Shown: positions 19,909 to 31,520 of the stretch, piece after piece
Layout of the letters: every line of letters begins with the position of its first letter
How positions within the stretch are numbered: the stretch's first letter is position 1
Position numbers and translations under genes: made by a program
Source: Trichodesmium erythraeum IMS101
GTDB lineage: Bacteria > Cyanobacteriota > Cyanobacteriia > Cyanobacteriales > Microcoleaceae
DNA: 32,000 nucleotides
Assembly: GCF_000014265.1 (NCBI RefSeq)
Contig: NC_008312.1
Span: 2,190,001 to 2,222,000, forward strand
Direction: 5' to 3'
Notes under the pieces: generated by a model
Databases searched by the model: none
The model's input: only the letters and a program-made list of their open reading frames with translations
Told to the model about the DNA's origin: nothing

Positions 19909-22056
19909 TCAGCTATTTTTCTCTATCGCCTGATAAACAAATTCACCGTAAATAATATTATTAGATACACTAGGACCATCAAGTTGCCCAACCTTTTCTT
20001 CACCATTTTCATATCTTAATACTAGCTCATCTTTTTGAGTAATATCCCAAGTACCAAAACGATTCGTTGAATAATCATAAATGTGATAAAATGAACGATC
20101 ATCGTCCAGGAAAATTCCTTCATATATGCTCCCATACGGAGCGTAAGCTAACCAATGATCACTAAAGAATTCTTCCCAGTCAGTAGGTTCAGGAAAATCT
20201 AGACTTTCAACTACATCATTTGCGATATCTTTATAGTCTTTTAGTTTATTAACAGAACCACCCACTGTCACAGTAGCAATTTCATCATTAGGCCCTACAG
20301 TACTAACCACATAATACTTTTCTTGAGATATTGAATTTTTGGCAGTATAAGTATTAGTAATTTGATTACCTTTTACCTTTGCTTTTCCTTGTGGTTCATA
20401 GGTGGTTTCGTCAATTGCCCAGGTATTAGCCAAGTTCTGTATAAGCCCTGTCAAATAATTCGATCTGACGCTTAATTCTACATAGACATCTGGATACTTT
20501 GTAGAGGTTAGTGTAAATGGAAAATACTGACCATCAACAAACGATCTTCCTTCAAATATTGTTTCAAACATTGATTTTTGTTTACCAACCCATCCTTCAG
20601 GTATTTCCAAAGAAACTCGGTTTTCAAACCCTACTCGTGTACCTGATTCATAAGTTTCTAATACCGATGGAAAAACTGTATTAACCTCCTGAGAACTCAA
20701 ACTAAGTTCATAATTTGTTTTAGCATTACCTTGAGCATAAACTTCTACATAATAAATTCCTGGTTCTAAAACTTCTGTAATTTTTTCTGAATTTTTACCC
20801 TTGTTAGTCGATTTATCCAAAACTGTTTCACCGTCTTCATCAATTAATCTTAGATTAGAGTTTTGCTTCAGTTTATTCAGATTAATATCTACTTCTTGTT
20901 CTTCGTTAATCTCAAAAAAATACAAATCTATTCCATCTCGTTTACCATTTTCTCTGTAGCCAATTTTATCATTAACTTTCAGTTCTTTCTGAGATAATTT
21001 TCCTAAATTATTCGCTCCATCTATACTTTTATCATCAGGAACGTTTTCTAAAATCAAGCGATAAGGAGTTTTTGCATTTCCCACAGCAGATACCCGCAGA
21101 TAATAATCTCCTGCATCTAAATATTCAGTAATATTTTCTGATTTTTTACCTCTTTTATTCGACTTTGCCAATACTTTTTTACCACTTTCATCAAATAAGT
21201 GAAGATTAGCATTTTTCTGGAGTTTATCCATCTCAATATTTACTTTCATATCTTCAGATATGCCGAAACTATAGTAGTCATATTTATCAACCTTGCCCTT
21301 TTTTTTGTAGCCAATTTTATCATTAAGTTTCAGTTCTTTCTGAGATAATTTTCCTAAATCATTCGCTCCATCTATATTTTTATCATCAGGAACTTTTTCT
21401 AAAATCAAGCGATAAGGAGTTTTTGCATTTCCCACAGCAGATACCCGCAGATAATAATCTCCTGCATCTAAATATTCAGTAATATTTTCTGATTTTTTAC
21501 CTCTTTTATTCGACTTTGCCAATACTTTTTTACCACTTTCATCAAATAAGTGAAGATTAGCATTTTTCTGGAGTTTATCCATATCAATACTTACTTCCAT
21601 ATTTTCAGATATGCCGAAACTATAGTAGTCATATTTATCAACCTTGCCCTTTTCTTTGTAGCCAATTCTATCGTTTATCTTAACTTTCTCACCAGAAACT
21701 ATATCTATTTCAGTTGCAGTATCAATCTTATTATCTGACTTTTGACCAGCTCTTAACTGAATATTTGTATCAAAATTATCACCTGTAATTTTATCAATTT
21801 CTTCTGTATTTTCAACACTTGCAGAATCTCTAATAGAGATAGATTCTAATTCATTTCCTAGGAAATTATAAGAACCAAGCGAATATTCAGTAGAGTTTAT
21901 ATTATCCTCTAAAGTTGAATTTTTTATGGTAATATCTGAAGTAGAATCGAAATAATTAATCTTATGATTTGAAAGTGAAAATAAATCACTTTTACTATCA
22001 GCTTTTGTGCCGAATAAATCAGAAAAAAATGAGTTTATCTCACGTTCAATATCCAT
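19909..22056 (-). CDS. Protein with three tandem pre-peptidase C-terminal (PPC)-type domains and an unassigned C-terminal domain
   Basis: 715-aa ORF. The pattern DKYDYYSFGISE...ANLHLFDESGKKVLAKS......ENITEYLDAGDYYLRVSAVGNAKTPYRLIL occurs three times (third copy diverged). It fits the PPC pattern DxYxF...L.L.D..G......I......G.YY..V......Y.L. I see no obvious signal peptide and no catalytic domain. Confidence 0.7.
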   Translation of the reverse strand: MDIEREINSFFSDLFGTKADSKSDLFSLSNHKINYFDSTSDITIKNSTLEDNINSTEYSLGSYNFLGNELESISIRDSASVENTEEIDKITGDNFDTNIQLRAGQKSDNKIDTATEIDIVSGEKVKINDRIGYKEKGKVDKYDYYSFGISENMEVSIDMDKLQKNANLHLFDESGKKVLAKSNKRGKKSENITEYLDAGDYYLRVSAVGNAKTPYRLILEKVPDDKNIDGANDLGKLSQKELKLNDKIGYKKKGKVDKYDYYSFGISEDMKVNIEMDKLQKNANLHLFDESGKKVLAKSNKRGKKSENITEYLDAGDYYLRVSAVGNAKTPYRLILENVPDDKSIDGANNLGKLSQKELKVNDKIGYRENGKRDGIDLYFFEINEEQEVDINLNKLKQNSNLRLIDEDGETVLDKSTNKGKNSEKITEVLEPGIYYVEVYAQGNAKTNYELSLSSQEVNTVFPSVLETYESGTRVGFENRVSLEIPEGWVGKQKSMFETIFEGRSFVDGQYFPFTLTSTKYPDVYVELSVRSNYLTGLIQNLANTWAIDETTYEPQGKAKVKGNQITNTYTAKNSISQEKYYVVSTVGPNDEIATVTVGGSVNKLKDYKDIANDVVESLDFPEPTDWEEFFSDHWLAYAPYGSIYEGIFLDDDRSFYHIYDYSTNRFGTWDITQKDELVLRYENGEEKVGQLDGPSVSNNIIYGEFVYQAIEKNS
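20957..21680. repeat. 351-bp (117-codon) near-identical tandem duplication inside the PPC-domain gene
   Basis: GTAGCCAATTTTATCATTAA... begins at 20957 and again at 21308. ATAAGGAGTTTTTGCATTTCCCACAGCAGATACCCGCAG occurs at 21061 and 21412. The period is 351 bp with only scattered substitutions. A partial third start lies at about 21659. Confidence 0.9.
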
Positions 22057-22408: not shown

Positions 22409-25400
22409 ATGCAGAGCGATCGCTTACCCCCCCAAAATATTGAATCAGAAGAAGCTATTTTAGGCGGTATTCTTCTTGATCCAGAAGCTATTAATCGAGT
22501 CACAGAATTGTTACACCCAGAATTTTTTGCTATTCAAGCTCATCAAATTATTTATAAAGCAATGTGCCAACTTTATAGTCAAGGCAAACCTACTGATTTA
22601 ATGACTGTTACCAGTTGGCTTTCTGATCATAATCAATTAGAAAAAATTGGTGGGCGAGTCAAAATAGTTCAACTATTAGAACGAACAGTTTCTGCAGTTA
22701 ATATTGACCAATATGCAGCTTTAGTTCTCGATAAATATATCCGTAGAAAATTAATTCAAGCTGGAAATGAAATTTTTGATTTAGGATTTCAAACCGCTAC
22801 TAAATTAGAAATTATTCTTGACCAAGCAGAACAAAAAATTTTTGCTCTGACTCAGGATAAACCACAACAAGATTTAGTTCCTATTTCTGAGACTTTAATT
22901 AATACTTTTCAGGAAATTGAAGATAGAAATGAAGGGGTTGCTTTACCTGGTCTTCCTTGTGGTTTTTACGATTTGGATGCAATGACTGGAGGTTTTCAAC
23001 GGTCTGATTTGATTATTGTTGCAGGTAGACCTTCTATGGGAAAATGTGCTGCTTATGATACTTTAGTTTTGCAAAAAGATGGTAGTTTAGTTACTTTAGC
23101 AGAGGTTTATAAAAGGCAGGAAATAGAATTATTAACTTTGGGAAAAAATAGCAAGTTTTATTTGACTAAACCTAGTGCTTTTATTGATGATGGAATTAAA
23201 CCTATATTTAGAGTAACCACAAAATTAGGAAGATTTGTAGAGACCACAATTACTCATCCTTTTTTGACGGTTAATGGTTGGAAACCTTTATCCAAATTAC
23301 AGGTTGGAGAAAAAATAGCTGTACCCCGTCGGTTAAATATTTTTGGTAATGAAACTATTTCAGAAAGTAAGTTTTCTTCCCTGATTAATTTTGACAATTT
23401 ATATCTTTTTCCTCTTGTATTTCAGTTAGAGAGATCCCAATTAGCTTTATTTATTAGATATCTATTTTCCTTAGATGGATGGGTGAAAATATATCAGAAC
23501 AAGATAGTATGTTTTGGTTATTCTACAGTTAGTGAAAAGTTGATTAGGCAAATACAACATATTTTGCTTAGGTTTGGAATTGTTAGTGGTATTGAAAAAT
23601 TTGAAGAGAAGAGAACTGAAAAAATAAAAGTCGTTAAAGAAGTTAAAAGTCAGAGGTCACATAGGGAGGAATTCACATTTGCAACCTACAGAAATTGTTA
23701 TTGTGATGGGAAATGGCATTTGACAATTACTGATGCTTTATCTCAGAAAAATTTGATGGAAGATATTGGTGGTTTTGATTCTAAAAATTTTTATCTATTC
23801 GATTTACTTCAACCCCATAATTCCGGAAATCAGGAATTAGAAAATCATCTAATTTTCTGGGATGAATTAGTGAATGTATTAGCCAAATTTGCCGCATCTA
23901 AAAATCAGTCTCTAAAAAATAGAACTGCCAAAGGAAAGTCTCCTAAAAATTCTGAGAACTTAACTACTACTGAGACTATCTGTAGAAAAAATATTCTGGC
24001 AAATATGGAGAACCTTCCATCAGACAATCAAAATTTTGACTCCGAAAAATTAGATTTATCTCAACCCCATAATTCCGGAAATCAGGAATTAGAAAATCAT
24101 CTAATTTTCTGGGATGAATTAGTGAATGTACTCGCCAAATTTGCCACATCTAAAAATCAGTCTCTAAAAAATAGAACTACCAAAAGAAATTCTCCTAAAA
24201 ATTCTGAGAACTTAACTACTACTGAGACTATCTGTAGAAAAAATATTCTGGCAAATATGGAGAACCTTCCATCAGACAATCAAAATTTTGACTCCGAAAA
24301 ATTAGATTTACCTCAACCCCATAATTCCGGAAATCAGGAATTAGAAAATCATCTAATTTTCTGGGATGAATTAGTGAATGTATTAGCCAAATTTGCCGCA
24401 TCTAAAAATCAGTCTCTAAAAAATAGAACTACCAAAAGAAATTCTCCTAAAAATTCTGAGAACTTAACTACTACTGAGACTATCTGTAGAAAAAATATTC
24501 TGGCAAATATGGAGAACCTTCCATCAGACAATCAAAATTTTGACTCCGAAAAATTAGATTTACCTCAACCCCATAATTCCGGAAATCAGGAATTAGAAAA
24601 TCATCTAATTTTCTGGGATGAATTAGTGAATGTACTCGCCAAATTTGCCACATCTAAAAATCAGTCTCTAAAAAATAGAACTACCAAAAGAAATTCTCCT
24701 AAAAATTCTGAGAACTTAACTACTACTGAGACTATCTGTAGAAAAAATATTCTGGCAAATATGGAGAACCTTCCATCAGACAATCAAAATTTTGACTCCG
24801 AAAAATTAGATTTATCTCAACCCCATAATTCCGGAACTCAGGAATTAGAAAATCATCTAATTTTCTGGGATGAATTAGTGAATGTATTAGCCAAATTTGC
24901 CGCATCTAAAAATCAGTCTCTAAAAAATAGAACTGCCAAAGGAAAGTCTCCTAAAAATTCTGAGAACTTAACTACTACTGAGACTATCTGTAGAAAAAAT
25001 ATTCTGGCAAATATGGAGAACCTTCCATCAGACAATCAAAATTTTGACTCCGAAAAATTAGATTTATCTCAACCCCATAATTCCGGAAATCAGGAATTAG
25101 AAAATCATCTAATTTTCTGGGATGAATTAGTGAATGTACTCGCCAAATTTGCCACATCTAAAAATCAGTCTCTAAAAAATAGAACTACCAAAAGAAATTC
25201 TCCTAAAAATTCTGAGAACTTAACTACTACTGAGACTATCTGTAGAAAAAATATTCTGGCAAATATGGAGAACCTTCCATCAGACAATCAAAATTTTGAC
25301 TCCGAAAAATTAGATTTACCTCAACCCCATAATTCCGGAAATCAGGAATTAGAAAATCATCTAATTTTCTGGGATGAATTAGTGAATGTACTCGCCAAAT

Positions 25401-28400
25401 TTGCCACATCTAAAAATCAGTCTCTAAAAAATAGAACTACCAAAAGAAATTCTCCTAAAAATTCTGAGAACTTAACTACTACTGAGACTATCTGTAGAAA
25501 AAATATTCTGGCAAATATGGAGAACCTTCCATCAGACAATCAAAATTTTGACTCCGAAAAATTAGATTTACCTCAACCCCATAATTCCGGAAATCAGGAA
25601 TTAGAAAATCATCTAATTTTCTGGGATGAATTAGTGAATGTACTCGCCAAATTTGCCACATCTAAAAATCAGTCTCTAAAAAATAGAACTACCAAAAGAA
25701 ATTCTCCTAAAAATTCTGAGAACTTAACTACTACTGAGACTATCTGTAGAAAAAATATTCTGGCAAATATGGAGAACCTTCCATCAGACAATCAAAATTT
25801 TGACTCCGAAAAATTAGATTTACCTCAACCCCATAATTCCGGAAATCAGGAATTAGAAAATCATCTAATTTTCTGGGATGAATTAGTGAATGTACTCGCC
25901 AAATTTGCCACATCTAAAAATCAGTCTCTAAAAAATAGAACTACCAAAAGAAATTCTCCTAAAAATTCTGAGAACTTAACTACTACTGAGACTATCTGTA
26001 GAAAAAATATTCTGGCAAATATGGAGAACCTTCCATCAGACAATCAAAATTTTGACTCCGAAAAATTAGATTTACCTCAACCCCATAATTCCGGAAATCA
26101 GGAATTAGAAAATCATCTAATTTTCTGGGATGAATTAGTGAATGTACTCGCCAAATTTGCCACATCTAAAAATCAGTCTCTAAAAAATAGAACTACCAAA
26201 AGAAATTCTCCTAAAAATTCTGAGAACTTAACTACTACTGAGACTATCTGTAGAAAAAATATTCTGGCAAATATGGAGAACCTTCCATCAGACAATCAAA
26301 ATTTTGACTCCGAAAAATTAGATTTATCTCAACCCCATAATTCCGGAACTCAGGAATTAGAAAATCATCTAATTTTCTGGGATGAATTAGTGAATGTATT
26401 AGCCAAATTTGCCGCATCTAAAAATCAGTCTCTAAAAAATAGAACTACCAAAAGAAATTCTCCTAAAAATTCTGAGAACTTAACTACTACTGAGACTATC
26501 TGTAGAAAAAATATTCTGGCAAATATGGAGAACCTTCCATCAGACAATCAAAATTTTGACTCCGAAAAATTAGATTTACCTCAACCCCATAATTCCGGAA
26601 CTCAGGAATTAGAAAATCATCTAATTTTCTGGGATGAATTAGTGAATGTATTAGCCAAATTTGCCGCATCTAAAAATCAGTCTCTAAAAAATAGAACTAC
26701 CAAAAGAAATTCTCCTAAAAATTCTGAGAACTTAACTACTACTGAGACTATCTGTAGAAAAAATATTCTGGCAAATATGGAGAACCTTCCATCAGACAAT
26801 CAAAATTTTGACTCCGAAAAATTAGATTTACCTCAACCCCATAATTCCGGAAATCAGGAATTAGAAAATCATCTAATTTTCTGGGATGAATTAGTGAATG
26901 TATTAGCCAAATTTGCCGCATCTAAAAATCAGTCTCTAAAAAATAGAACTACCAAAAGAAATTCTCCTAAAAATTCTGAGAACTTAACTACTACTGAGAC
27001 TATCTGTAGAAAAAATATTCTGGCAAATATGGAGAACCTTCCATCAGACAATCAAAATTTTGACTCCGAAAAATTAGATTTACCTCAACCCCATAATTCC
27101 GGAAATCAGGAATTAGAAAATCATCTAATTTTCTGGGATGAATTAGTGAATGTACTCGCCAAATTTGCCACATCTAAAAATCAGTCTCTAAAAAATAGAA
27201 CTACCAAAAGAAATTCTCCTAAAAATTCTGAGAACTTAACTACTACTGAGACTATCTGTAGAAAAAATATTCTGGCAAATATGGAGAACCTTCCATCAGA
27301 CAATCAAAATTTTGACTCCGAAAAATTAGATTTACCTCAACCCCATAATTCCGGAAATCAGGAATTAGAAAATCATCTAATTTTCTGGGATGAATTAGTG
27401 AATGTACTCGCCAAATTTGCCACATCTAAAAATCAGTCTCTAAAAAATAGAACTGCCAAAGGAAAGTCTCCTAAAAATTCTGAGAACTTAACTACTACTG
27501 AGACTATCTGTAGAAAAAATATTCTGGCAAATATGGAGAACCTTCCATCAGACAATCAAAATTTTGACTCCGAAAAATTAGATTTACCTCAACCCCATAA
27601 TTCCGGAAATCAGGAATTAGAAAATCATCTAATTTTCTGGGATGAATTAGTGAATGTACTCGCCAAATTTGCCACATCTAAAAATCAGTCTCTAAAAAAT
27701 AGAACTACCAAAAGAAATTCTCCTAAAAATTCTGAGAACTTAACTACTACTGAGACTATCTGTAGAAAAAATATTCTGGCAAATATGGAGAACCTTCCAT
27801 CAGACAATCAAAATTTTGACTCCGAAAAATTAGATTTACCTCAACCCCATAATTCCGGAAATCAGGAATTAGAAAATCATCTAATTTTCTGGGATGAATT
27901 AGTGAATGTACTCGCCAAATTTGCCACATCTAAAAATCAGTCTCTAAAAAATAGAACTACCAAAAGAAATTCTCCTAAAAATTCTGAGAACTTAACTACT
28001 ACTGAGACTATCTGTAGAAAAAATATTCTGGCAAATATGGAGAACCTTCCATCAGACAATCAAAATTTTGACTCCGAAAAATTAGATTTACCTCAACCCC
28101 ATAATTCCGGAAATCAGGAATTAGAAAATCATCTAATTTTCTGGGATGAATTAGTGAATGTACTCGCCAAATTTGCCACATCTAAAAATCAGTCTCTAAA
28201 AAATAGAACTGCCAAAGGAAAGTCTCCTAAAAATTCTGAGAACTTAACTACTACTGAGACTATCTGTAGAAAAAATATTCTGGCAAATATGGAGAACCTT
28301 CCATCAGACAATCAAAATTTTGACTCCGAAAAATTAGATTTACCTCAACCCCATAATTCCGGAAATCAGGAATTAGAAAATCATCTAATTTTCTGGGATG

Positions 28401-30226
28401 AATTAGTGAATGTACTCGCCAAATTTGCCACATCTAAAAATCAGTCTCTAAAAAATAGAACTACCAAAAGAAATTCTCCTAAAAATTCTGAGAACTTAAC
28501 TACTACTGAGACTATCTGTAGAAAAAATATTCTGGCAAATATGGAGAACCTTCCATCAGACAATCAAAATTTTGACTCCGAAAAATTAGATTTACCTCAA
28601 CCCCATAATTCCGGAAATCAGGAATTAGAAAATCATCTAATTTTCTGGGATGAATTAGTGAATGTACTCGCCAAATTTGCCACATCTAAAAATCAGTCTC
28701 TAAAAAATAGAACTACCAAAAGAAATTCTCCTAAAAATTCTGAGAACTTAACTACTACTGAGACTATCTGTAGAAAAAATATTCTGGCAAATATGGAGAA
28801 CCTTCCATCAGACAATCAAAATTTTGACTCCGAAAAATTAGATTTACCTCAACCCCATAATTCTGGAACTCAGGAATTAGAAAATAGCGATATTTTCTGG
28901 GATAAAATTGTTTCTATAGAACCAGTAGGAGAAAAGCAAGTATATGATCTGACTGTGCCAGAAACTCATAATTTTGTAGCTAATGATATTTGCCTACATA
29001 ATACTAGCTTCGCTGTGAATATTGCTCATAGTATTGCAGCTAATCTAAAGTTGCCAATTGCTATTTTTAGTTTGGAAATGTCTAAGGAACAATTGGTATT
29101 AAGACTATTAGCTAGTGAGGCAAGAATTGAAAGTAATAGGTTACGAGCTGGGCGTATTAGTCAGAATGAATGGGAACCTTTAACTTCAGCTATTACTAAT
29201 CTTTCTGAAATGCCAATTTTTATTGATGATACTCCTAATATTACTGTTAATGAAATTCGTTCAAAAACTAGACAACTTCAGAGTGAACAAGGTGGGAAAT
29301 TAGGATTAATTTTATTAGATTATTTACAGTTAATGGAGGGAAATAATAGTGATAATAGAGTTTTAGAGTTAGCAAGAATAACTAGGAATTTGAAGGGTTT
29401 AGCACGGGAACTTTCGGTGCCTATTATTGCTTTATCTCAACTTAGTAGAAGTGTAGAAGCTCGAACTAATAAAAGACCGATGATGTCTGACTTGAGAGAG
29501 TCTGGTTGTTTGACTGGGGAAAGTCTAATTTGTTTAGCTGATGGTAAGAAAATTCCTATTTCTTGTCTGGTTGGTAATTCTAATTTTGCTGTTTTGGCTT
29601 TGAATGAAAATACTTGGAAATTTGAGTCGGCGATGGTCAGTCGAGTATTTTCTACTGGGGTTAAACCTATCTTTTCTCTGCAAACTTCTTCAGGAAAATT
29701 GATTAGGGCAACGGCTAATCATCCTTTCTTTTCTATGGGGGGTTGGAAACAATTAAATACTCTGAATATTGGGGATTCTCTTGCTATTTTGAACCAAAAA
29801 ATGCTTAAATGTTCAATATTGTATGATGGTCATTTTTTGTCTCAAAGTGATTTTGGGCCAAAATATGGTAGAAATTTAGGGTCTATAGTTAAGTCTCATG
29901 AGTGGGAAAAGTCTACTGAAATTGATGTAGAATGGGATGAAATTGTCGAAATAATGCCTCATGGAGAGGCGGAGGTTTTTGATTTAACTGTGCCTGGTCT
30001 GCATAATTTTGTGGCAAATGAGATTGTTGTTCATAACTCTATTGAACAGGATGCCGATCTAGTTATTATGCTTTATCGAGATGAGTATTATTCCCCAGAT
30101 ACTCCCGACCAAGGTATTGCTGAGGTTATTATTACTAAGCATCGGAATGGTCCGACTGGTACGGTTAAGTTATTGTTTGACCCTCAGTTTACTAAGTTTA
30201 GAAATTTGGCGGTTGATAAAAGATAA
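22409..30226 (+). CDS. dnaB: Replicative DNA helicase DnaB precursor carrying two inteins
   Basis: The exteins are 22409-23044 (212 aa), 29003-29506 (168 aa) and 30038-30223 (62 aa), totalling 442 aa. The N-terminus LPPQNIESEEAILGGILLDPEAI is canonical DnaB. After splicing the Walker A reads GRPSMGK-TSFAV, Walker B is LILLDYLQLM, and there are also LARELSVPIIALSQLSR and RESG-SIEQDADLVIMLYRDEYY. All junction coordinates were checked to be in frame with 22409. Confidence 0.95.
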   Translation: MQSDRLPPQNIESEEAILGGILLDPEAINRVTELLHPEFFAIQAHQIIYKAMCQLYSQGKPTDLMTVTSWLSDHNQLEKIGGRVKIVQLLERTVSAVNIDQYAALVLDKYIRRKLIQAGNEIFDLGFQTATKLEIILDQAEQKIFALTQDKPQQDLVPISETLINTFQEIEDRNEGVALPGLPCGFYDLDAMTGGFQRSDLIIVAGRPSMGKCAAYDTLVLQKDGSLVTLAEVYKRQEIELLTLGKNSKFYLTKPSAFIDDGIKPIFRVTTKLGRFVETTITHPFLTVNGWKPLSKLQVGEKIAVPRRLNIFGNETISESKFSSLINFDNLYLFPLVFQLERSQLALFIRYLFSLDGWVKIYQNKIVCFGYSTVSEKLIRQIQHILLRFGIVSGIEKFEEKRTEKIKVVKEVKSQRSHREEFTFATYRNCYCDGKWHLTITDALSQKNLMEDIGGFDSKNFYLFDLLQPHNSGNQELENHLIFWDELVNVLAKFAASKNQSLKNRTAKGKSPKNSENLTTTETICRKNILANMENLPSDNQNFDSEKLDLSQPHNSGNQELENHLIFWDELVNVLAKFATSKNQSLKNRTTKRNSPKNSENLTTTETICRKNILANMENLPSDNQNFDSEKLDLPQPHNSGNQELENHLIFWDELVNVLAKFAASKNQSLKNRTTKRNSPKNSENLTTTETICRKNILANMENLPSDNQNFDSEKLDLPQPHNSGNQELENHLIFWDELVNVLAKFATSKNQSLKNRTTKRNSPKNSENLTTTETICRKNILANMENLPSDNQNFDSEKLDLSQPHNSGTQELENHLIFWDELVNVLAKFAASKNQSLKNRTAKGKSPKNSENLTTTETICRKNILANMENLPSDNQNFDSEKLDLSQPHNSGNQELENHLIFWDELVNVLAKFATSKNQSLKNRTTKRNSPKNSENLTTTETICRKNILANMENLPSDNQNFDSEKLDLPQPHNSGNQELENHLIFWDELVNVLAKFATSKNQSLKNRTTKRNSPKNSENLTTTETICRKNILANMENLPSDNQNFDSEKLDLPQPHNSGNQELENHLIFWDELVNVLAKFATSKNQSLKNRTTKRNSPKNSENLTTTETICRKNILANMENLPSDNQNFDSEKLDLPQPHNSGNQELENHLIFWDELVNVLAKFATSKNQSLKNRTTKRNSPKNSENLTTTETICRKNILANMENLPSDNQNFDSEKLDLPQPHNSGNQELENHLIFWDELVNVLAKFATSKNQSLKNRTTKRNSPKNSENLTTTETICRKNILANMENLPSDNQNFDSEKLDLSQPHNSGTQELENHLIFWDELVNVLAKFAASKNQSLKNRTTKRNSPKNSENLTTTETICRKNILANMENLPSDNQNFDSEKLDLPQPHNSGTQELENHLIFWDELVNVLAKFAASKNQSLKNRTTKRNSPKNSENLTTTETICRKNILANMENLPSDNQNFDSEKLDLPQPHNSGNQELENHLIFWDELVNVLAKFAASKNQSLKNRTTKRNSPKNSENLTTTETICRKNILANMENLPSDNQNFDSEKLDLPQPHNSGNQELENHLIFWDELVNVLAKFATSKNQSLKNRTTKRNSPKNSENLTTTETICRKNILANMENLPSDNQNFDSEKLDLPQPHNSGNQELENHLIFWDELVNVLAKFATSKNQSLKNRTAKGKSPKNSENLTTTETICRKNILANMENLPSDNQNFDSEKLDLPQPHNSGNQELENHLIFWDELVNVLAKFATSKNQSLKNRTTKRNSPKNSENLTTTETICRKNILANMENLPSDNQNFDSEKLDLPQPHNSGNQELENHLIFWDELVNVLAKFATSKNQSLKNRTTKRNSPKNSENLTTTETICRKNILANMENLPSDNQNFDSEKLDLPQPHNSGNQELENHLIFWDELVNVLAKFATSKNQSLKNRTAKGKSPKNSENLTTTETICRKNILANMENLPSDNQNFDSEKLDLPQPHNSGNQELENHLIFWDELVNVLAKFATSKNQSLKNRTTKRNSPKNSENLTTTETICRKNILANMENLPSDNQNFDSEKLDLPQPHNSGNQELENHLIFWDELVNVLAKFATSKNQSLKNRTTKRNSPKNSENLTTTETICRKNILANMENLPSDNQNFDSEKLDLPQPHNSGTQELENSDIFWDKIVSIEPVGEKQVYDLTVPETHNFVANDICLHNTSFAVNIAHSIAANLKLPIAIFSLEMSKEQLVLRLLASEARIESNRLRAGRISQNEWEPLTSAITNLSEMPIFIDDTPNITVNEIRSKTRQLQSEQGGKLGLILLDYLQLMEGNNSDNRVLELARITRNLKGLARELSVPIIALSQLSRSVEARTNKRPMMSDLRESGCLTGESLICLADGKKIPISCLVGNSNFAVLALNENTWKFESAMVSRVFSTGVKPIFSLQTSSGKLIRATANHPFFSMGGWKQLNTLNIGDSLAILNQKMLKCSILYDGHFLSQSDFGPKYGRNLGSIVKSHEWEKSTEIDVEWDEIVEIMPHGEAEVFDLTVPGLHNFVANEIVVHNSIEQDADLVIMLYRDEYYSPDTPDQGIAEVIITKHRNGPTGTVKLLFDPQFTKFRNLAVDKR
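23340..23808 (+). other. Partial LAGLIDADG-type homing-endonuclease remnant within intein 1
   Basis: There is a single LAGLIDADG-like motif, LALFIRYLFSLDGWV (about 23440-23490). It is followed by YSTVSEKLIRQIQHILLRFGIVSGI and WHLTITD...NLMEDIGG. No second LAGLIDADG motif is visible before the repeat array starts. Confidence 0.5.
23811..28850 (+). repeat. 20 tandem copies of a 252-bp (84-codon) unit, in frame inside intein 1
   Basis: AACCCCATAA recurs at 23811, 24063, 24315, 24567 ... 28851, and 28851-23811 = 5040 = 20 x 252. The unit peptide is QPHNSGNQELENHLIFWDELVNVLAKFATSKNQSLKNRTTKRNSPKNSENLTTTETICRKNILANMENLPSDNQNFDSEKLDLP. Units differ at only four small polymorphic blocks. Degenerate homology continues into both flanks (about 23776-23810 and 28851-28915). 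Confidence 0.97.
29507..30037 (+). mobile_element. Intein 2 (177-aa mini-intein, no endonuclease domain) at the RESG/SIEQDAD site of DnaB
   Basis: It starts CLTGESLICLADGKKI, has a TxxH-like ATANHPFFSMGGW and ends VFDLTVPGLHNFVANEIVVHN/S. The flanking exteins rejoin as DLRESG-SIEQDADL. I recall the Synechocystis DnaB mini-intein using the same position. Confidence 0.9.
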
Positions 30227-30270: not shown

Positions 30271-31520
30271 AATATTTTCATTTTGGGAAGCTCTTTAAAT
30301 GGTTGTTTTTCCCTTATTAATTTTTTTATCCATCCTGACTCAATGAACAGCCACAAATATTTTCATTCTGTGGAGCTCCGAGAAAAACAGCGGGTCAAAA
30401 TATTTTCCTCCCCATTCTCAGATTTTTTGTGATATTATTAATGTTATAGGGGGTTACTTGCCTATATGCATGACTTTTTGTTCAACAAAATAAGTTTCCA
30501 GGCGATCGCCTTTTCAGTTATTAGCTATCAGCTAAAAAAAATCAAATAATTAATTGTAGGCTGGGTTGAACCAAGTGATACCCAACAGAACCATAATTTC
30601 GAGTCATAGAAAAGTTGGAGATACTTAAGAGTCAAAAAAAACACTAAGATTTTCATTCTGTGGAGCTCCGAGAAAAACAGCGGGTCAAAATATTTTCCTC
30701 CCCATTCTCAGATTTTTTGTGATATTATTAATGTTATAGGGGGTTACTCGCCTATATACATGACTTTTTGTTCAACAAAATAAGTTTCCAGGCGATCGCC
30801 TTTTCAGTTATTAGCTATCAGCTAAAAAAAATCAAATAATTAATTGTAGGCTGGGTTGAACCAAGTGATACCCAACAGAACCATAATTTCGAGTCATAGA
30901 AAAGTTGGAGATACTTAAGAGTCAAAAAAAACACCAAGATTTTCATTCTGTGGAGCTCCAAGAAAAACAGCGGGTCAAAATATTTTCCTCCCCATTCTCA
31001 GATTTTTTGTGATATTATTAATGTTATAGGGGCTTACTTGCCTATATGCATGACTTTTTGTTCAACAAAATAAGTTTCCAGGCGATCGCCTTTTCAGTTA
31101 TTAGTTATCAGCTAAAAAAAACAAATAATTGTAGGCTGGGTTGAACCAAGTGATACCCAACAGAACCATAATTTCGAGTCATAGAAAAGTTGGAGATACT
31201 TAAGAGTCAAAAAAAAACACCAAGATTTTCATTCTGTGGAGCTCCAAGAAAAACAGCGGGTCAAAATATTTTCCTCCCCATTCTCAGATTTTTTGTGATA
31301 TTATTAATGTTATAGGGGCTTACTTGCCTATATGCATGACTTTTTGTTCAACAAAATAAGTTTCCAGGCGATCGCCTTTTGAGTTATTAGTTATCAGCTT
31401 TCTACTTAAATTACGAATATCTAAAGGATGAAATATGACAGAGCGATCGCTGCTTTCATACATAAAAAAATCGGATAATTGTAGGTTGAGTTGAAGAAAG
31501 TGAAGCCCAACAAAATTGAT
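30271..31520. repeat. Non-coding tandem array of a ~290-bp unit (3 full and 1 partly diverged copy, plus degenerate flanking fragments)
   Basis: TTTCATTCTGTGGAGCTCC starts at 30361, 30651, 30941 and 31227, giving periods of 290, 290 and 286 bp. The copies are nearly identical with a handful of SNPs and small indels. A degenerate partial copy lies at about 30271-30360, and the last unit diverges after about 31400 with a recognisable tail to about 31520. No ORF of 60 aa or more occurs in any frame. Confidence 0.9.

What the first reader, a model, noticed from the sequence alone, without database searches (positions are those of the whole stretch)
23045..29002. 1,986-aa intein splitting the DnaB Walker-A loop, about 85% of it made of 20 in-frame 252-bp tandem repeats
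The 7,818-nt ORF encodes only about 442 aa of recognisable helicase. At 23045 the P-loop GRPSMGK is interrupted by a Cys and resumes at 29003 as TSFAVNIA. Rejoined, GRPSMGK-T is the canonical GxxxxGKT. The insert has textbook intein ends: Cys1, a TITH block, and ...HNFVANDICLHN followed by Thr+1. Between the two splicing halves sit 20 units of 84 aa (1,680 aa) that are almost identical at the DNA level. More than 80% of the translation product of an essential replication gene must therefore be removed post-translationally. A 5-kb near-perfect repeat is kept open in exactly one frame. Nothing in the sequence says what the array does. It could be a neutral passenger shielded from selection by splicing, a delay or regulator of helicase maturation, or a functional Asn/Ser/Lys-rich protein once excised. 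Caveat from memory: a tandem-repeat-harbouring DnaB intein has been reported for Trichodesmium erythraeum. If this is that locus its existence is known, but its role and dynamics are not.
Basis: partly seen in the sequence, partly recalled or inferred. Interest (0 to 1): 0.85.

Follow-up and report, generated by a model that had tools for sequence, protein, structure and literature searches.

The report
Known repeat-stuffed intein in Trichodesmium DnaB
The replication helicase gene of the marine cyanobacterium Trichodesmium erythraeum carries a self-removing protein insert (an intein) swollen by 20 near-identical 84-residue repeats; it is real and striking, but I recall it being described in 2004, and the repeats look like tolerated, almost neutrally evolving passengers.

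Summary
ORF 22409-30226 (2,605 aa) is dnaB of Trichodesmium erythraeum IMS101 (Tery_1462, an exact match).

- **Intein 1.** A 1,986-aa intein (23045-29002) splits the Walker A loop. It holds 20.3 in-frame copies of a 252-bp unit.
- **Intein 2.** A second, 177-aa mini-intein lies at 29507-30037.
- **Spliced product.** Removing both inteins in silico gives a 442-aa DnaB that aligns end to end with solved DnaB structures.

This is the named Ter DnaB-1 intein. From memory, its repeats were published in 2004, so the finding is already known.

- The array also sits in the orthologous intein of other Trichodesmium and of Okeania (about 1-10 units). It is absent from more distant inteins at the same site.
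- The unit is a duplicated piece of the intein itself: the tail of its decayed endonuclease plus the first C-terminal splicing strand.
- Units evolve almost neutrally (dN/dS about 0.7, against about 0.1 for the helicase) and are homogenised within each genome.
- A scan of 1.84 billion proteins found the unit only in these DnaB precursors.

Best reading: a tolerated in-frame minisatellite that splicing hides from the mature helicase. A regulatory role is not excluded.

The parts
22409..30226 (+). dnaB precursor ORF (2,605 aa, about 296 kDa); T. erythraeum IMS101 Tery_1462 / ABG50752.1 / WP_011611129.1
   Evidence: exact sequence match; mass; TIGR00665 640 bits, cut-off 385
22409..23044 (+). N-extein, aa 1-212: DnaB N-terminal domain and the start of the ATPase domain, ending in GRPSMGK of Walker A
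23045..29002 (+). Intein 1 (Ter DnaB-1), 1,986 aa, about 227 kDa, at DnaB site b (P-loop); Cys1 ... His-Asn, followed by Thr+1
   Evidence: site naming from PMC4760082
23045..23335 (+). N-terminal splicing lobe of intein 1 (aa 213-309), with block B TITH at nt 23246-23257
   Evidence: TIGR01445 at aa 213-287; Pfam Intein_splicing; dN/dS about 0.2
23336..23836 (+). Decayed homing-endonuclease remnant. A single LAGLIDADG motif (LALFIRYLFSLDGW, nt 23441-23482) is left. Its tail WHLTITD...DIGGFDSKNF (nt 23714-23791) is the native 'zeroth' copy from which part of the repeat unit derives
   Evidence: LAGLIDADG_3 hit at intein aa 132-242. First motif and about 150 aa are missing compared with L021-L023. 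dN/dS about 0.5. The unit profile hits this tail
23797..28903 (+). Tandem array: 20.3 copies of 252 bp (84 aa), in frame, 98% identical. In the LEN register the 20 full units span 23837-28876
28877..29002 (+). C-terminal splicing lobe of intein 1 (aa 2157-2198): LENSDIFWDKIVSIE...HNFVANDICLHN
   Evidence: TIGR01443; Pfam; dN/dS 0.06-0.16 in most pairs
29003..29506 (+). Middle extein, aa 2199-2366 (TSFAVNIA ... RESG): core of the DnaB ATPase domain
   Evidence: dN/dS 0.04-0.22
29507..30037 (+). Intein 2 (probably the one named Ter DnaB-2): a 177-aa mini-intein at DnaB site a (H4 motif); Cys1 ... His-Asn, followed by Ser+1
   Evidence: (Intein_splicing 5.9e-28); site from PMC4760082
30038..30226 (+). 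C-extein, aa 2544-2605 (SIEQDAD...), plus the stop codon

Best explanation
This is dnaB of Trichodesmium erythraeum IMS101, interrupted by two class-1 inteins.

How it works (inferred unless marked). The gene is translated as one precursor of about 296 kDa. Intein 1 sits in the Walker A loop (DnaB site b). Intein 2 sits in motif H4 (site a). Each excises itself and ligates its flanks, leaving a 442-aa, 49.6-kDa DnaB with GRPSMGK-T restored. In intein 1 the two lobes of the splicing fold, about 97 aa at the N end and about 42 aa at the C end, are separated by roughly 1,850 aa. That stretch lies where a homing endonuclease normally sits. The lobes must find each other much as the halves of a split intein do.

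What the insert is (shown). It is a decayed half of a LAGLIDADG endonuclease followed by 20.3 in-frame copies of an 84-aa unit. The unit is home-made: it duplicates the endonuclease tail, a linker and the first C-terminal splicing strand.

Why it persists (inferred).
- Copy number changes by slippage or unequal recombination between copies.
- Units are homogenised within each genome.
- Units drift almost neutrally at the protein level.
- The frame stays open only because a stop or frameshift would cut off the essential C-terminal part of DnaB.
- The array is tolerated because splicing removes it from the mature enzyme and because DnaB is made in small amounts.
- Recombination between units can shrink the array to one unit but cannot remove it cleanly.

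So the array is a trapped coding minisatellite, not a functional module.
For: - Identity: exact match to Tery_1462.
- Intein status: N- and C-terminal splicing HMMs score above cut-off. The full Intein_splicing profile matches once the repeats are removed. Cys1, TITH and HN/T are present in all five orthologues. The spliced sequence aligns end to end with Geobacillus DnaB 2vye, E 6e-131, across both junctions.
- The gene is functional: the extein downstream of the array has dN/dS 0.04-0.22.
- The endonuclease is decayed: one LAGLIDADG motif is left, against two in full-length inteins at the same site. Its dN/dS is about 0.5.
- Near-neutral units: pooled dN/dS is 0.73 (range 0.54-0.96 between genomes). 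Ten single pairs give 0.54-1.06; none differs from 1 (P 0.07-0.87) and all differ from the exteins (P 0.015 to 7e-10). Unit dS is about equal to extein dS. Codon position 3 is as conserved as positions 1+2 (0.83 vs 0.84), unlike the extein (0.90 vs 0.975).
- Copy number is not conserved: 20 in IMS101; 3 in two T. thiebautii-type assemblies; 1 in other assemblies; at least 2 in MAG_R03; about 9-10 in two Okeania. Unit lengths of 77, 84 and 96 aa occur.
- Concerted evolution: each unit's nearest relatives are in its own genome.
- Recent expansion in IMS101: 9 variable sites forming a mosaic of four linked blocks.
- Origin: the unit profile hits the native endonuclease tail (55 bits in Okeania, 19-38 bits in the others) and the native LENxDIFWDxIVSI strand. 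Against repeat-free relatives the best hhalign match is that same strand.
- Restricted distribution: 5 hits among 1.84 billion representative proteins, all DnaB precursors or fragments of this lineage. There is no Pfam family for the unit.
- Literature: PMC3620165 says splicing of the natural inteins it used, Ter DnaB-1 among them, had been shown earlier in E. coli.
Against: - The array has survived since before the Trichodesmium-Okeania split (extein dS about 0.4-0.5), and no orthologue seen here has lost it. A few columns are at least 90% conserved (L1, I6, F7, F18, L42, T43, T47, K51, N52, P61, N79). Pooled dN/dS is below 1, so weak constraint on part of the unit is not excluded.
- A Ter DnaB-1 mini-intein, with the endonuclease region replaced by a short linker, did not splice in a foreign context (PMC3620165 Table 1). 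Some of the insert may therefore matter for folding.
- All orthologous copy numbers come from short-read assemblies, which collapse or break such arrays. One related MAG has a 100-N gap there.
- No splicing, expression or proteomic data could be examined here.
- The structure prediction of three units was uninformative (pLDDT 39).
Confidence: 0.8

Rival explanations
1. The array is a selected timer or dosage control. It adds about 1,700 codons before the C-terminal splicing lobe is made, and it supplies 20 decoy copies of the first C-lobe strand (LENxxIFWDELV). Both would delay or throttle DnaB maturation, and copy number would set the delay.
For: - The array is retained in every Trichodesmium and Okeania orthologue examined.
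- The LENxxIFW motif is among the best-conserved parts of the unit.
- P-loop DnaB inteins in mycobacteria are reported as conditional splicing sensors, going by the titles and abstracts of PMC6195587 and PMC7360933 listed.
- The repeat-less mini-intein failed to splice in a foreign context.
Against: - Copy number ranges from about 1 to 20 between close relatives.
- dN/dS is about 0.7 and not distinguishable from 1. The segment holding the decoy strand is no more constrained than the rest (0.67 vs 0.73).
- Third codon positions are as conserved as positions 1 and 2.
- Homogenisation from the selected terminal copy can explain the conserved motif.
- Persistence is explained by the lack of a clean deletion route.
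Confidence: 0.07
2. The excised 227-kDa intein, rich in Asn, Ser, Lys and Leu, is itself a functional protein, for example a scaffold or a nucleic-acid binder. DnaB would serve only as its delivery vehicle.
For: - The unit descends partly from an endonuclease segment.
- Helical propensity appears in a low-confidence model.
- The array is long-lived across two genera.
Against: - The sequence evolves almost neutrally.
- No homologue exists outside these DnaB precursors among 1.84 billion proteins.
- No domain family matches; the weak Mago_nashi and DUF hits are below cut-off.
- Output is tied one-to-one to a low-abundance helicase.
- Unit number and length vary.
Confidence: 0.04
3. The count of 20 is an assembly artefact. 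A real but shorter or longer array was mis-assembled in the reference genome.
For: - Short-read assemblies of close relatives break at the array, leave a 100-N gap, or show only one unit.
- Near-identical 252-bp units are hard to assemble.
Against: - The units carry an aperiodic mosaic of four variant blocks, not a clean assembler loop.
- The source is a single 7.75-Mb finished record.
- Arrays with more diverged units, which assemble reliably, exist at the same place in Okeania.
- Two independent T. thiebautii-type assemblies agree on 3.3 copies.
- From memory, the 2004 paper worked with the cloned intein.
Confidence: 0.05
4. The gene is a disrupted pseudogene, and a second dnaB elsewhere does the work.
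For: None found. I could not scan the rest of the genome.
Against: - The 7.8-kb frame is intact.
- Exteins on both sides of the array are under strong purifying selection (dN/dS about 0.1).
- Splicing residues are conserved in five genomes.
- The spliced product is a complete DnaB.
Confidence: 0.01

Closest known systems
Ter DnaB-1 intein of T. erythraeum IMS101. Named in PMC3620165. From memory, described by Yang, Meng and Liu 2004, Mol Microbiol 51:1185, 'Intein harbouring large tandem repeats in replicative DNA helicase of Trichodesmium erythraeum'; that paper is not in the held library
   Same: It is this very locus: an exact match to Tery_1462, in the same host protein, and the first of two inteins.
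   Different: Nothing differs in the object itself.
DnaB site-b (P-loop) inteins, e.g. Mycobacterium smegmatis DnaBi1 (PMC6195587, PMC7360933; site scheme in PMC4760082)
   Same: Same insertion point in Walker A, with Thr+1. Same class-1 splicing residues. They often occur together with a site-a intein.
   Different: Those inteins carry no tandem repeats. Conditional, stress-responsive splicing is reported for the mycobacterial intein and is untested here.
Repeat-free inteins at the same site in metagenomes and MAGs: L021-L023 (492-496 aa, two LAGLIDADG motifs), L019 (347 aa), L004 (223 aa), L006 (494 aa)
   Same: They share 30-56% identity with the non-repeat parts, the same site, and the same HNF(V/I)A(N/A/D)D(I/V)CVHN/T end.
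   Different: None has a tandem repeat. The full-length ones keep the first LAGLIDADG motif and a C-terminal endonuclease region of about 95 aa, both of which the Trichodesmium/Okeania intein has lost.
Natural split inteins (e.g. cyanobacterial DnaE; Ter DnaE-3)
   Same: They work alike in one respect: the N and C lobes of the splicing fold must associate without a short covalent link, at the same loop where endonucleases insert.
   Different: Here the lobes are still joined, by a tether of about 1,850 aa. This is cis-splicing, not trans-splicing.
In-frame coding minisatellites (VNTRs) in bacterial genes
   Same: The unit length is a multiple of three, copy number varies, and units are homogenised within a genome.
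   Different: In my recollection such repeats usually lie in surface or contingency genes and stay in the mature protein. Here they sit in an essential replication gene and are removed after translation.

Membership tests
Intein (class 1, Hint-fold protein-splicing element) | Nucleophile (Cys/Ser/Thr) as the first residue | tested here: met
   Cys213 at nt 23045; conserved in five orthologues
Intein (class 1, Hint-fold protein-splicing element) | Block B T-x-x-H | tested here: met
   TITH at aa 280-283; conserved in the orthologues
Intein (class 1, Hint-fold protein-splicing element) | C-terminal His-Asn followed by Cys/Ser/Thr at +1 | tested here: met
   ...ICLHN / T at 29002/29003
Intein (class 1, Hint-fold protein-splicing element) | Curated HMMs for the N- and C-terminal splicing regions match above cut-off | tested here: met
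   TIGR01445 38 bits (cut-off 24.5) and TIGR01443 38.4 bits (cut-off 15.6) on the isolated flanks. Pfam Intein_splicing covers profile 2-155 of 155, E 2.5e-26, on the repeat-deleted sequence
Intein (class 1, Hint-fold protein-splicing element) | Removal restores a contiguous, conserved host protein | tested here: met
   The 442-aa product aligns at residues 3-437 with DnaB 2vye, E 6e-131, with GRPSMGKT and RESGSIEQDAD restored
Intein (class 1, Hint-fold protein-splicing element) | Protein splicing demonstrated | not testable with these tools
   PMC3620165 states that splicing of the natural inteins it used, including Ter DnaB-1, had been shown earlier in E. coli model proteins. The engineered mini-intein did not splice
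DnaB site-b (P-loop) intein allele | Insertion between the Lys and Thr of Walker A GxxxxGK/T | tested here: met
   GRPSMGK | C...N | TSFAVNIA. Site b is the P-loop according to PMC4760082. Relatives at the same site: L004, L006, L019-L025
Bifunctional intein with an active LAGLIDADG homing endonuclease | Two LAGLIDADG motifs or half-domains in one chain | tested here: not met
   Only LALFIRYLFSLDGW is present. The first motif (LLGYLIGDGCL in L021-L023) and about 150 aa are absent, as is the C-terminal region of about 95 aa. dN/dS is about 0.5
Ter DnaB-1 intein (named entry) | Same protein, same organism | tested here: met
   Exact 2,605-aa match to ABG50752.1 / WP_011611129.1 / Tery_1462 of T. 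erythraeum IMS101
Known protein repeat or domain family (for the 84-aa unit) | Significant match to a curated family, or homologues in other protein contexts | tested here: not met
   All Pfam hits on two units are below cut-off. The Mago_nashi signal on the whole protein sums weak repeated hits. Two word-index searches found nothing outside this lineage. A full HMMER scan of 1.84 billion proteins gave 5 hits, all DnaB precursors of this lineage
Protein-coding sequence under purifying selection (for the unit) | dN/dS well below 1; third codon positions less conserved than first and second | tested here: not met
   Pooled dN/dS is 0.73; single pairs give 0.54-1.06, none different from 1. Position 3 conservation is 0.83 against 0.84 for positions 1+2
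Mini-intein at DnaB site a (intein 2) | Splicing domain without an endonuclease, inserted in RESG/SIEQDAD | tested here: met
   177 aa; Intein_splicing covers profile 1-155 of 155, E 5.9e-28, with no endonuclease hit; coordinates

The most novel reading that the evidence does not exclude
The array is not junk but a maintained, copy-number-tunable module. It has been retained since before the Trichodesmium-Okeania split. Each unit carries a decoy of the first C-lobe splicing strand. The array could therefore set the delay or yield of DnaB maturation, and so replication capacity, in these slow-growing cyanobacteria, which I recall being polyploid. Slippage would provide a heritable dial. Alternatively, the free 227-kDa intein could have a role of its own.
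Probability: 0.08. Interest if true: 0.7.

Novelty: already known. Interest (0 to 1): 0.3.

Why it matters
As far as I know, this is one of the largest inteins known: 83% of an essential protein's translation product is thrown away. It shows how protein splicing can shelter otherwise lethal sequence growth inside an essential gene.

The existence of the locus is not new.
- The array is an old, lineage-wide feature of the Trichodesmium/Okeania DnaB intein, not a quirk of one strain.
- It arose from the intein's own endonuclease and splicing-lobe junction.
- Its units evolve close to neutrality. This shifts the burden of proof onto any functional hypothesis.

There is also a practical point. Short-read genomes and MAGs break, gap or collapse at this locus, so dnaB is often mis-annotated as fragments in these taxa.

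Tried and rejected
- **The 2004 paper.** Ten full-text searches and one PubMed-id look-up did not find it. It is cited from memory only.
- **Pfam hits on the unit.** Mago_nashi, DUF7272 and SWT1_3rd are below cut-off. The E value of 1.6e-9 on the whole protein comes from summing 20 weak copies. Rejected.
- **Structure prediction.** AlphaFold2 on three units as a single sequence gave pLDDT 39, pTM 0.21. This is uninformative, so I ran no fold search.
- **Word-index protein searches with the unit.** A single sequence gave 0 hits and a profile gave 1 fragment. Cluster representatives are mostly fragments, so I replaced these with the full HMMER scan.
- **Exact look-up of the precursor.** Nothing was on record in the contig index. 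Identity came from the cluster look-up instead.
- **An alternative origin for the unit.** I considered the lost C-terminal endonuclease region of about 95 aa, because 'ILATTLDNLP' resembles 'ILANMENLP'. I rejected it: the Okeania zeroth copy links the unit to the WxLxITD...IGxF tail at 55 bits, and hhalign ranks that region second after the splicing strand.
- **Antisense promoter-like site in every unit.** The match is TTGCCA-16-GATAGT, 9 of 12. The total count in the region is no higher than in shuffles. Rejected.
- **Other checks.** Rfam found nothing in the window. The downstream 290-bp repeat shows no RNA structure signal.
Full report
**1. The observation**

The window holds a single 2,605-aa ORF at 22409-30226 on the + strand.
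- GRPSMGK ends at nt 23044, and a Cys follows at 23045.
- ...HNFVANDICLHN ends at 29002, and TSFAVNIA starts at 29003. The insert is therefore exactly 1,986 aa.
- Tandem Repeats Finder reports 20.3 copies of a 252-bp unit at 23797-28903, with 98% matches and no indels.
- Only nine nucleotide positions vary among the 20 full units. They form four linked blocks in mosaic combinations, and ten units equal the consensus.
- One frame of the array is open over 1,702 codons. The other five frames hold 102-182 stops each.

**2. Identity**

The translated ORF is an exact match to ABG50752.1 / WP_011611129.1 / Tery_1462. That entry is the 'primary replicative DNA helicase' of Trichodesmium erythraeum IMS101, on the 7.75-Mb chromosome record. 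Four neighbouring ORFs match the same genome.

[quoted passage not shown] From memory, the tandem repeats were described by Yang, Meng and Liu in Mol Microbiol in 2004. I could not retrieve that paper, so that citation rests on recollection.

**3. Anatomy and membership**

NCBIfam intein_Nterm matches aa 213-287 and intein_Cterm matches aa 2178-2199, both above their curated cut-offs. The exteins match the DnaB equivalog model.
- With the repeats removed in silico, the 306-aa intein matches the full Pfam Intein_splicing profile (E 2.5e-26) and one LAGLIDADG_3 domain.
- With both inteins removed, the 442-aa product aligns end to end with Geobacillus DnaB (2vye, E 6e-131). GRPSMGKT and RESGSIEQDAD are both restored.
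- In the published site scheme, the P-loop site is DnaB site b and the H4-motif site is site a. Cyanobacterial DnaBs that carry both are known (PMC4760082).
- The endonuclease is decayed. Full-length inteins at the same site from metagenomes (L021-L023, 492-496 aa) have two LAGLIDADG motifs and a further C-terminal region of about 95 aa. This intein keeps only the second motif, and that region evolves at dN/dS of about 0.5.

**4. Relatives**

Orthologous dnaB genes with both inteins were found in five other genomes:
- Trichodesmium MAG_R03 (L001);
- Trichodesmium MAG_R02 (L002);
- T. thiebautii H9-4 (L015);
- Okeania sp. KiyG1 (L003);
- Okeania sp. SIO3B5 (L007).

All carry tandem units of the same 252-bp family at the same place. 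Counts are at least 2 in MAG_R03, 3.3 in each of the two T. thiebautii-type assemblies, and about 10 and about 9 in the two Okeania. Unit variants of 77 and 96 aa occur.

Other assemblies show a single unit. Others break at the array or carry a 100-N gap there. Short-read copy numbers are therefore soft.

More distant inteins at the same site (30-56% identity: L004, L006, L019-L025) have no tandem repeat. The array is thus a shared feature of the Trichodesmium/Okeania lineage. It is older than the split of those genera, whose extein dS is about 0.4-0.5.

**5. Origin of the unit**

A profile of the units, written as a dimer so that any register can match, hits two native parts of the intein:
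- the endonuclease tail just upstream of the array (55 bits in Okeania KiyG1, 38 in MAG_R03, 19-22 in the others);
- the C-lobe strand LENxDIFWDxIVSI (10-13 bits).

The tail lies inside the Pfam LAGLIDADG_3 match. Against repeat-free relatives, the best profile-profile match of the unit is the same splicing strand (P 0.0014). The second best is the same endonuclease segment, which is not significant on its own (P 0.24).

So the unit is a tandem duplication of about 84 codons running from the end of the endonuclease remnant into the first strand of the C-terminal splicing lobe. The first, degenerate copy is the original tail. The last, partial copy is the working splicing strand.

**6. Selection**

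All figures below use the same Nei-Gojobori method.

| Region | dN/dS |
|---|---|
| Exteins | about 0.1 |
| N-terminal splicing lobe | about 0.2 |
| Endonuclease remnant | about 0.5 |
| Intein 2 | 0.25-0.6 |
| Repeat units, between genomes | 0.54-0.96 (pooled 0.73) |

- In ten single comparisons the unit ratio is 0.54-1.06. It never differs from 1 (P 0.07-0.87), and it always differs from the exteins of the same genome pair (P 0.015 to 7e-10).
- Unit dS is close to extein dS.
- Third codon positions are as conserved as positions 1 and 2 in the units (0.83 vs 0.84). In the extein they are not (0.90 vs 0.975).
- Each unit's nearest relatives lie in its own genome, and the 5' units of the Okeania arrays are the most diverged. 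This is the usual picture of concerted evolution with recent growth.
- Within IMS101 the units differ by about 1%, so the expansion to 20 is recent.

**7. Distribution of the unit**

A full HMMER scan of 1.84 billion representative proteins with two units found five hits. All are DnaB precursors or fragments from Okeania, a Cyanobacteriota MAG, or T. thiebautii-type contigs. No curated family matches the unit.

**8. Most likely mechanism**

Shown:
- the intein architecture;
- the restored host protein;
- strong constraint on the exteins on both sides of the array;
- near-neutral drift and homogenisation of the units;
- variable copy number.

Inferred:
- The precursor is translated in full and both inteins splice.
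- The two lobes of intein 1 meet across a tether of about 1,850 aa, much as split-intein halves do.
- The array changes length by slippage or unequal recombination. This may be helped by the many genome copies per cell that I recall being reported for Trichodesmium.
- The frame is kept open only by selection on the downstream extein.
- The cost is small because little DnaB is made.
- Recombination between units can reduce the array to one unit but cannot excise it cleanly, which explains long persistence without function.
- The genome is known for abundant non-coding and repeated DNA (PMC4143802). This window alone holds two other large tandem repeats.

**9. Rivals**

- A timer or dosage role, or a function for the free 227-kDa intein, is not excluded. 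The array has never been lost, some columns are at least 90% conserved, and the repeat-less mini-intein failed to splice in a foreign context. The selection data and the unstable copy number argue against both.
- An assembly artefact could affect the number 20 but not the existence of the array.
- The pseudogene reading is contradicted by extein constraint and the intact frame.

**10. Verdict**

The comparative results here are a modest extension. They favour the neutral-passenger reading at about 0.75-0.8.

Noticed in passing
window 29507-30037 (+): A second intein sits in the same gene: a 177-aa mini-intein at DnaB site a (RESG | CLTGES...VVHN | SIEQDAD). It is conserved in all five orthologues, with dN/dS of 0.25-0.6. 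The finding used it implicitly in its count of 442 aa but did not describe it.
   Followed up: yes
window 30352-31507; L002 13417-14752: An intergenic 290-bp tandem repeat of four copies lies just downstream of dnaB. Copies 1-2 are 99% alike; copies 3-4 are 70-74% alike to the reference copy. A 293-bp array with a similar consensus, 4.6 copies, sits downstream of dnaB in Trichodesmium MAG_R02 (the two were not formally aligned). There is no Rfam hit, no ORF over 66 aa, and no RNA-fold signal (z -0.2 and -0.6).
   Followed up: partly
window 20948-21672, inside ORF 19909-22056 (-): An in-frame 351-bp tandem repeat (2.1 copies, 96% alike) lies inside the PPC-domain 'peptidase-like' gene. In this window, and in the close T. 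erythraeum relative GBRTRLIN201 (L016), this gene lies between rplI and dnaB. In T. thiebautii-type and Okeania loci rplI is directly upstream of dnaB.
   Followed up: partly
L016 11729-11828; proteins P0002, P0003, P0004, P0008, P0065; L015 3291-6733: Public short-read genomes and MAGs of close relatives mis-handle this locus. One has a 100-N scaffold gap in the array. In others dnaB is split into 477-aa and 576-aa fragment genes, or the array appears as a single unit. The T. thiebautii H9-4 draft has frameshifts, probably sequencing errors.
   Followed up: partly
window 23975-28790 (-), once per unit: Every unit carries the same weak antisense sigma-70-like match (TTGCCA, 16 nt, GATAGT; 9 of 12). 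It lies in the stretch of the unit that is best conserved at the DNA level. The number of promoter-like sites in the region is not above that in shuffles.
   Followed up: partly
L007 9649-10071; L003 12106-13316: The Okeania arrays contain sub-arrays with other in-frame periods: 231 bp (77 aa) and 288 bp (96 aa, carrying an internal 36-bp duplication). Unit length itself therefore drifts, always in multiples of three.
   Followed up: partly
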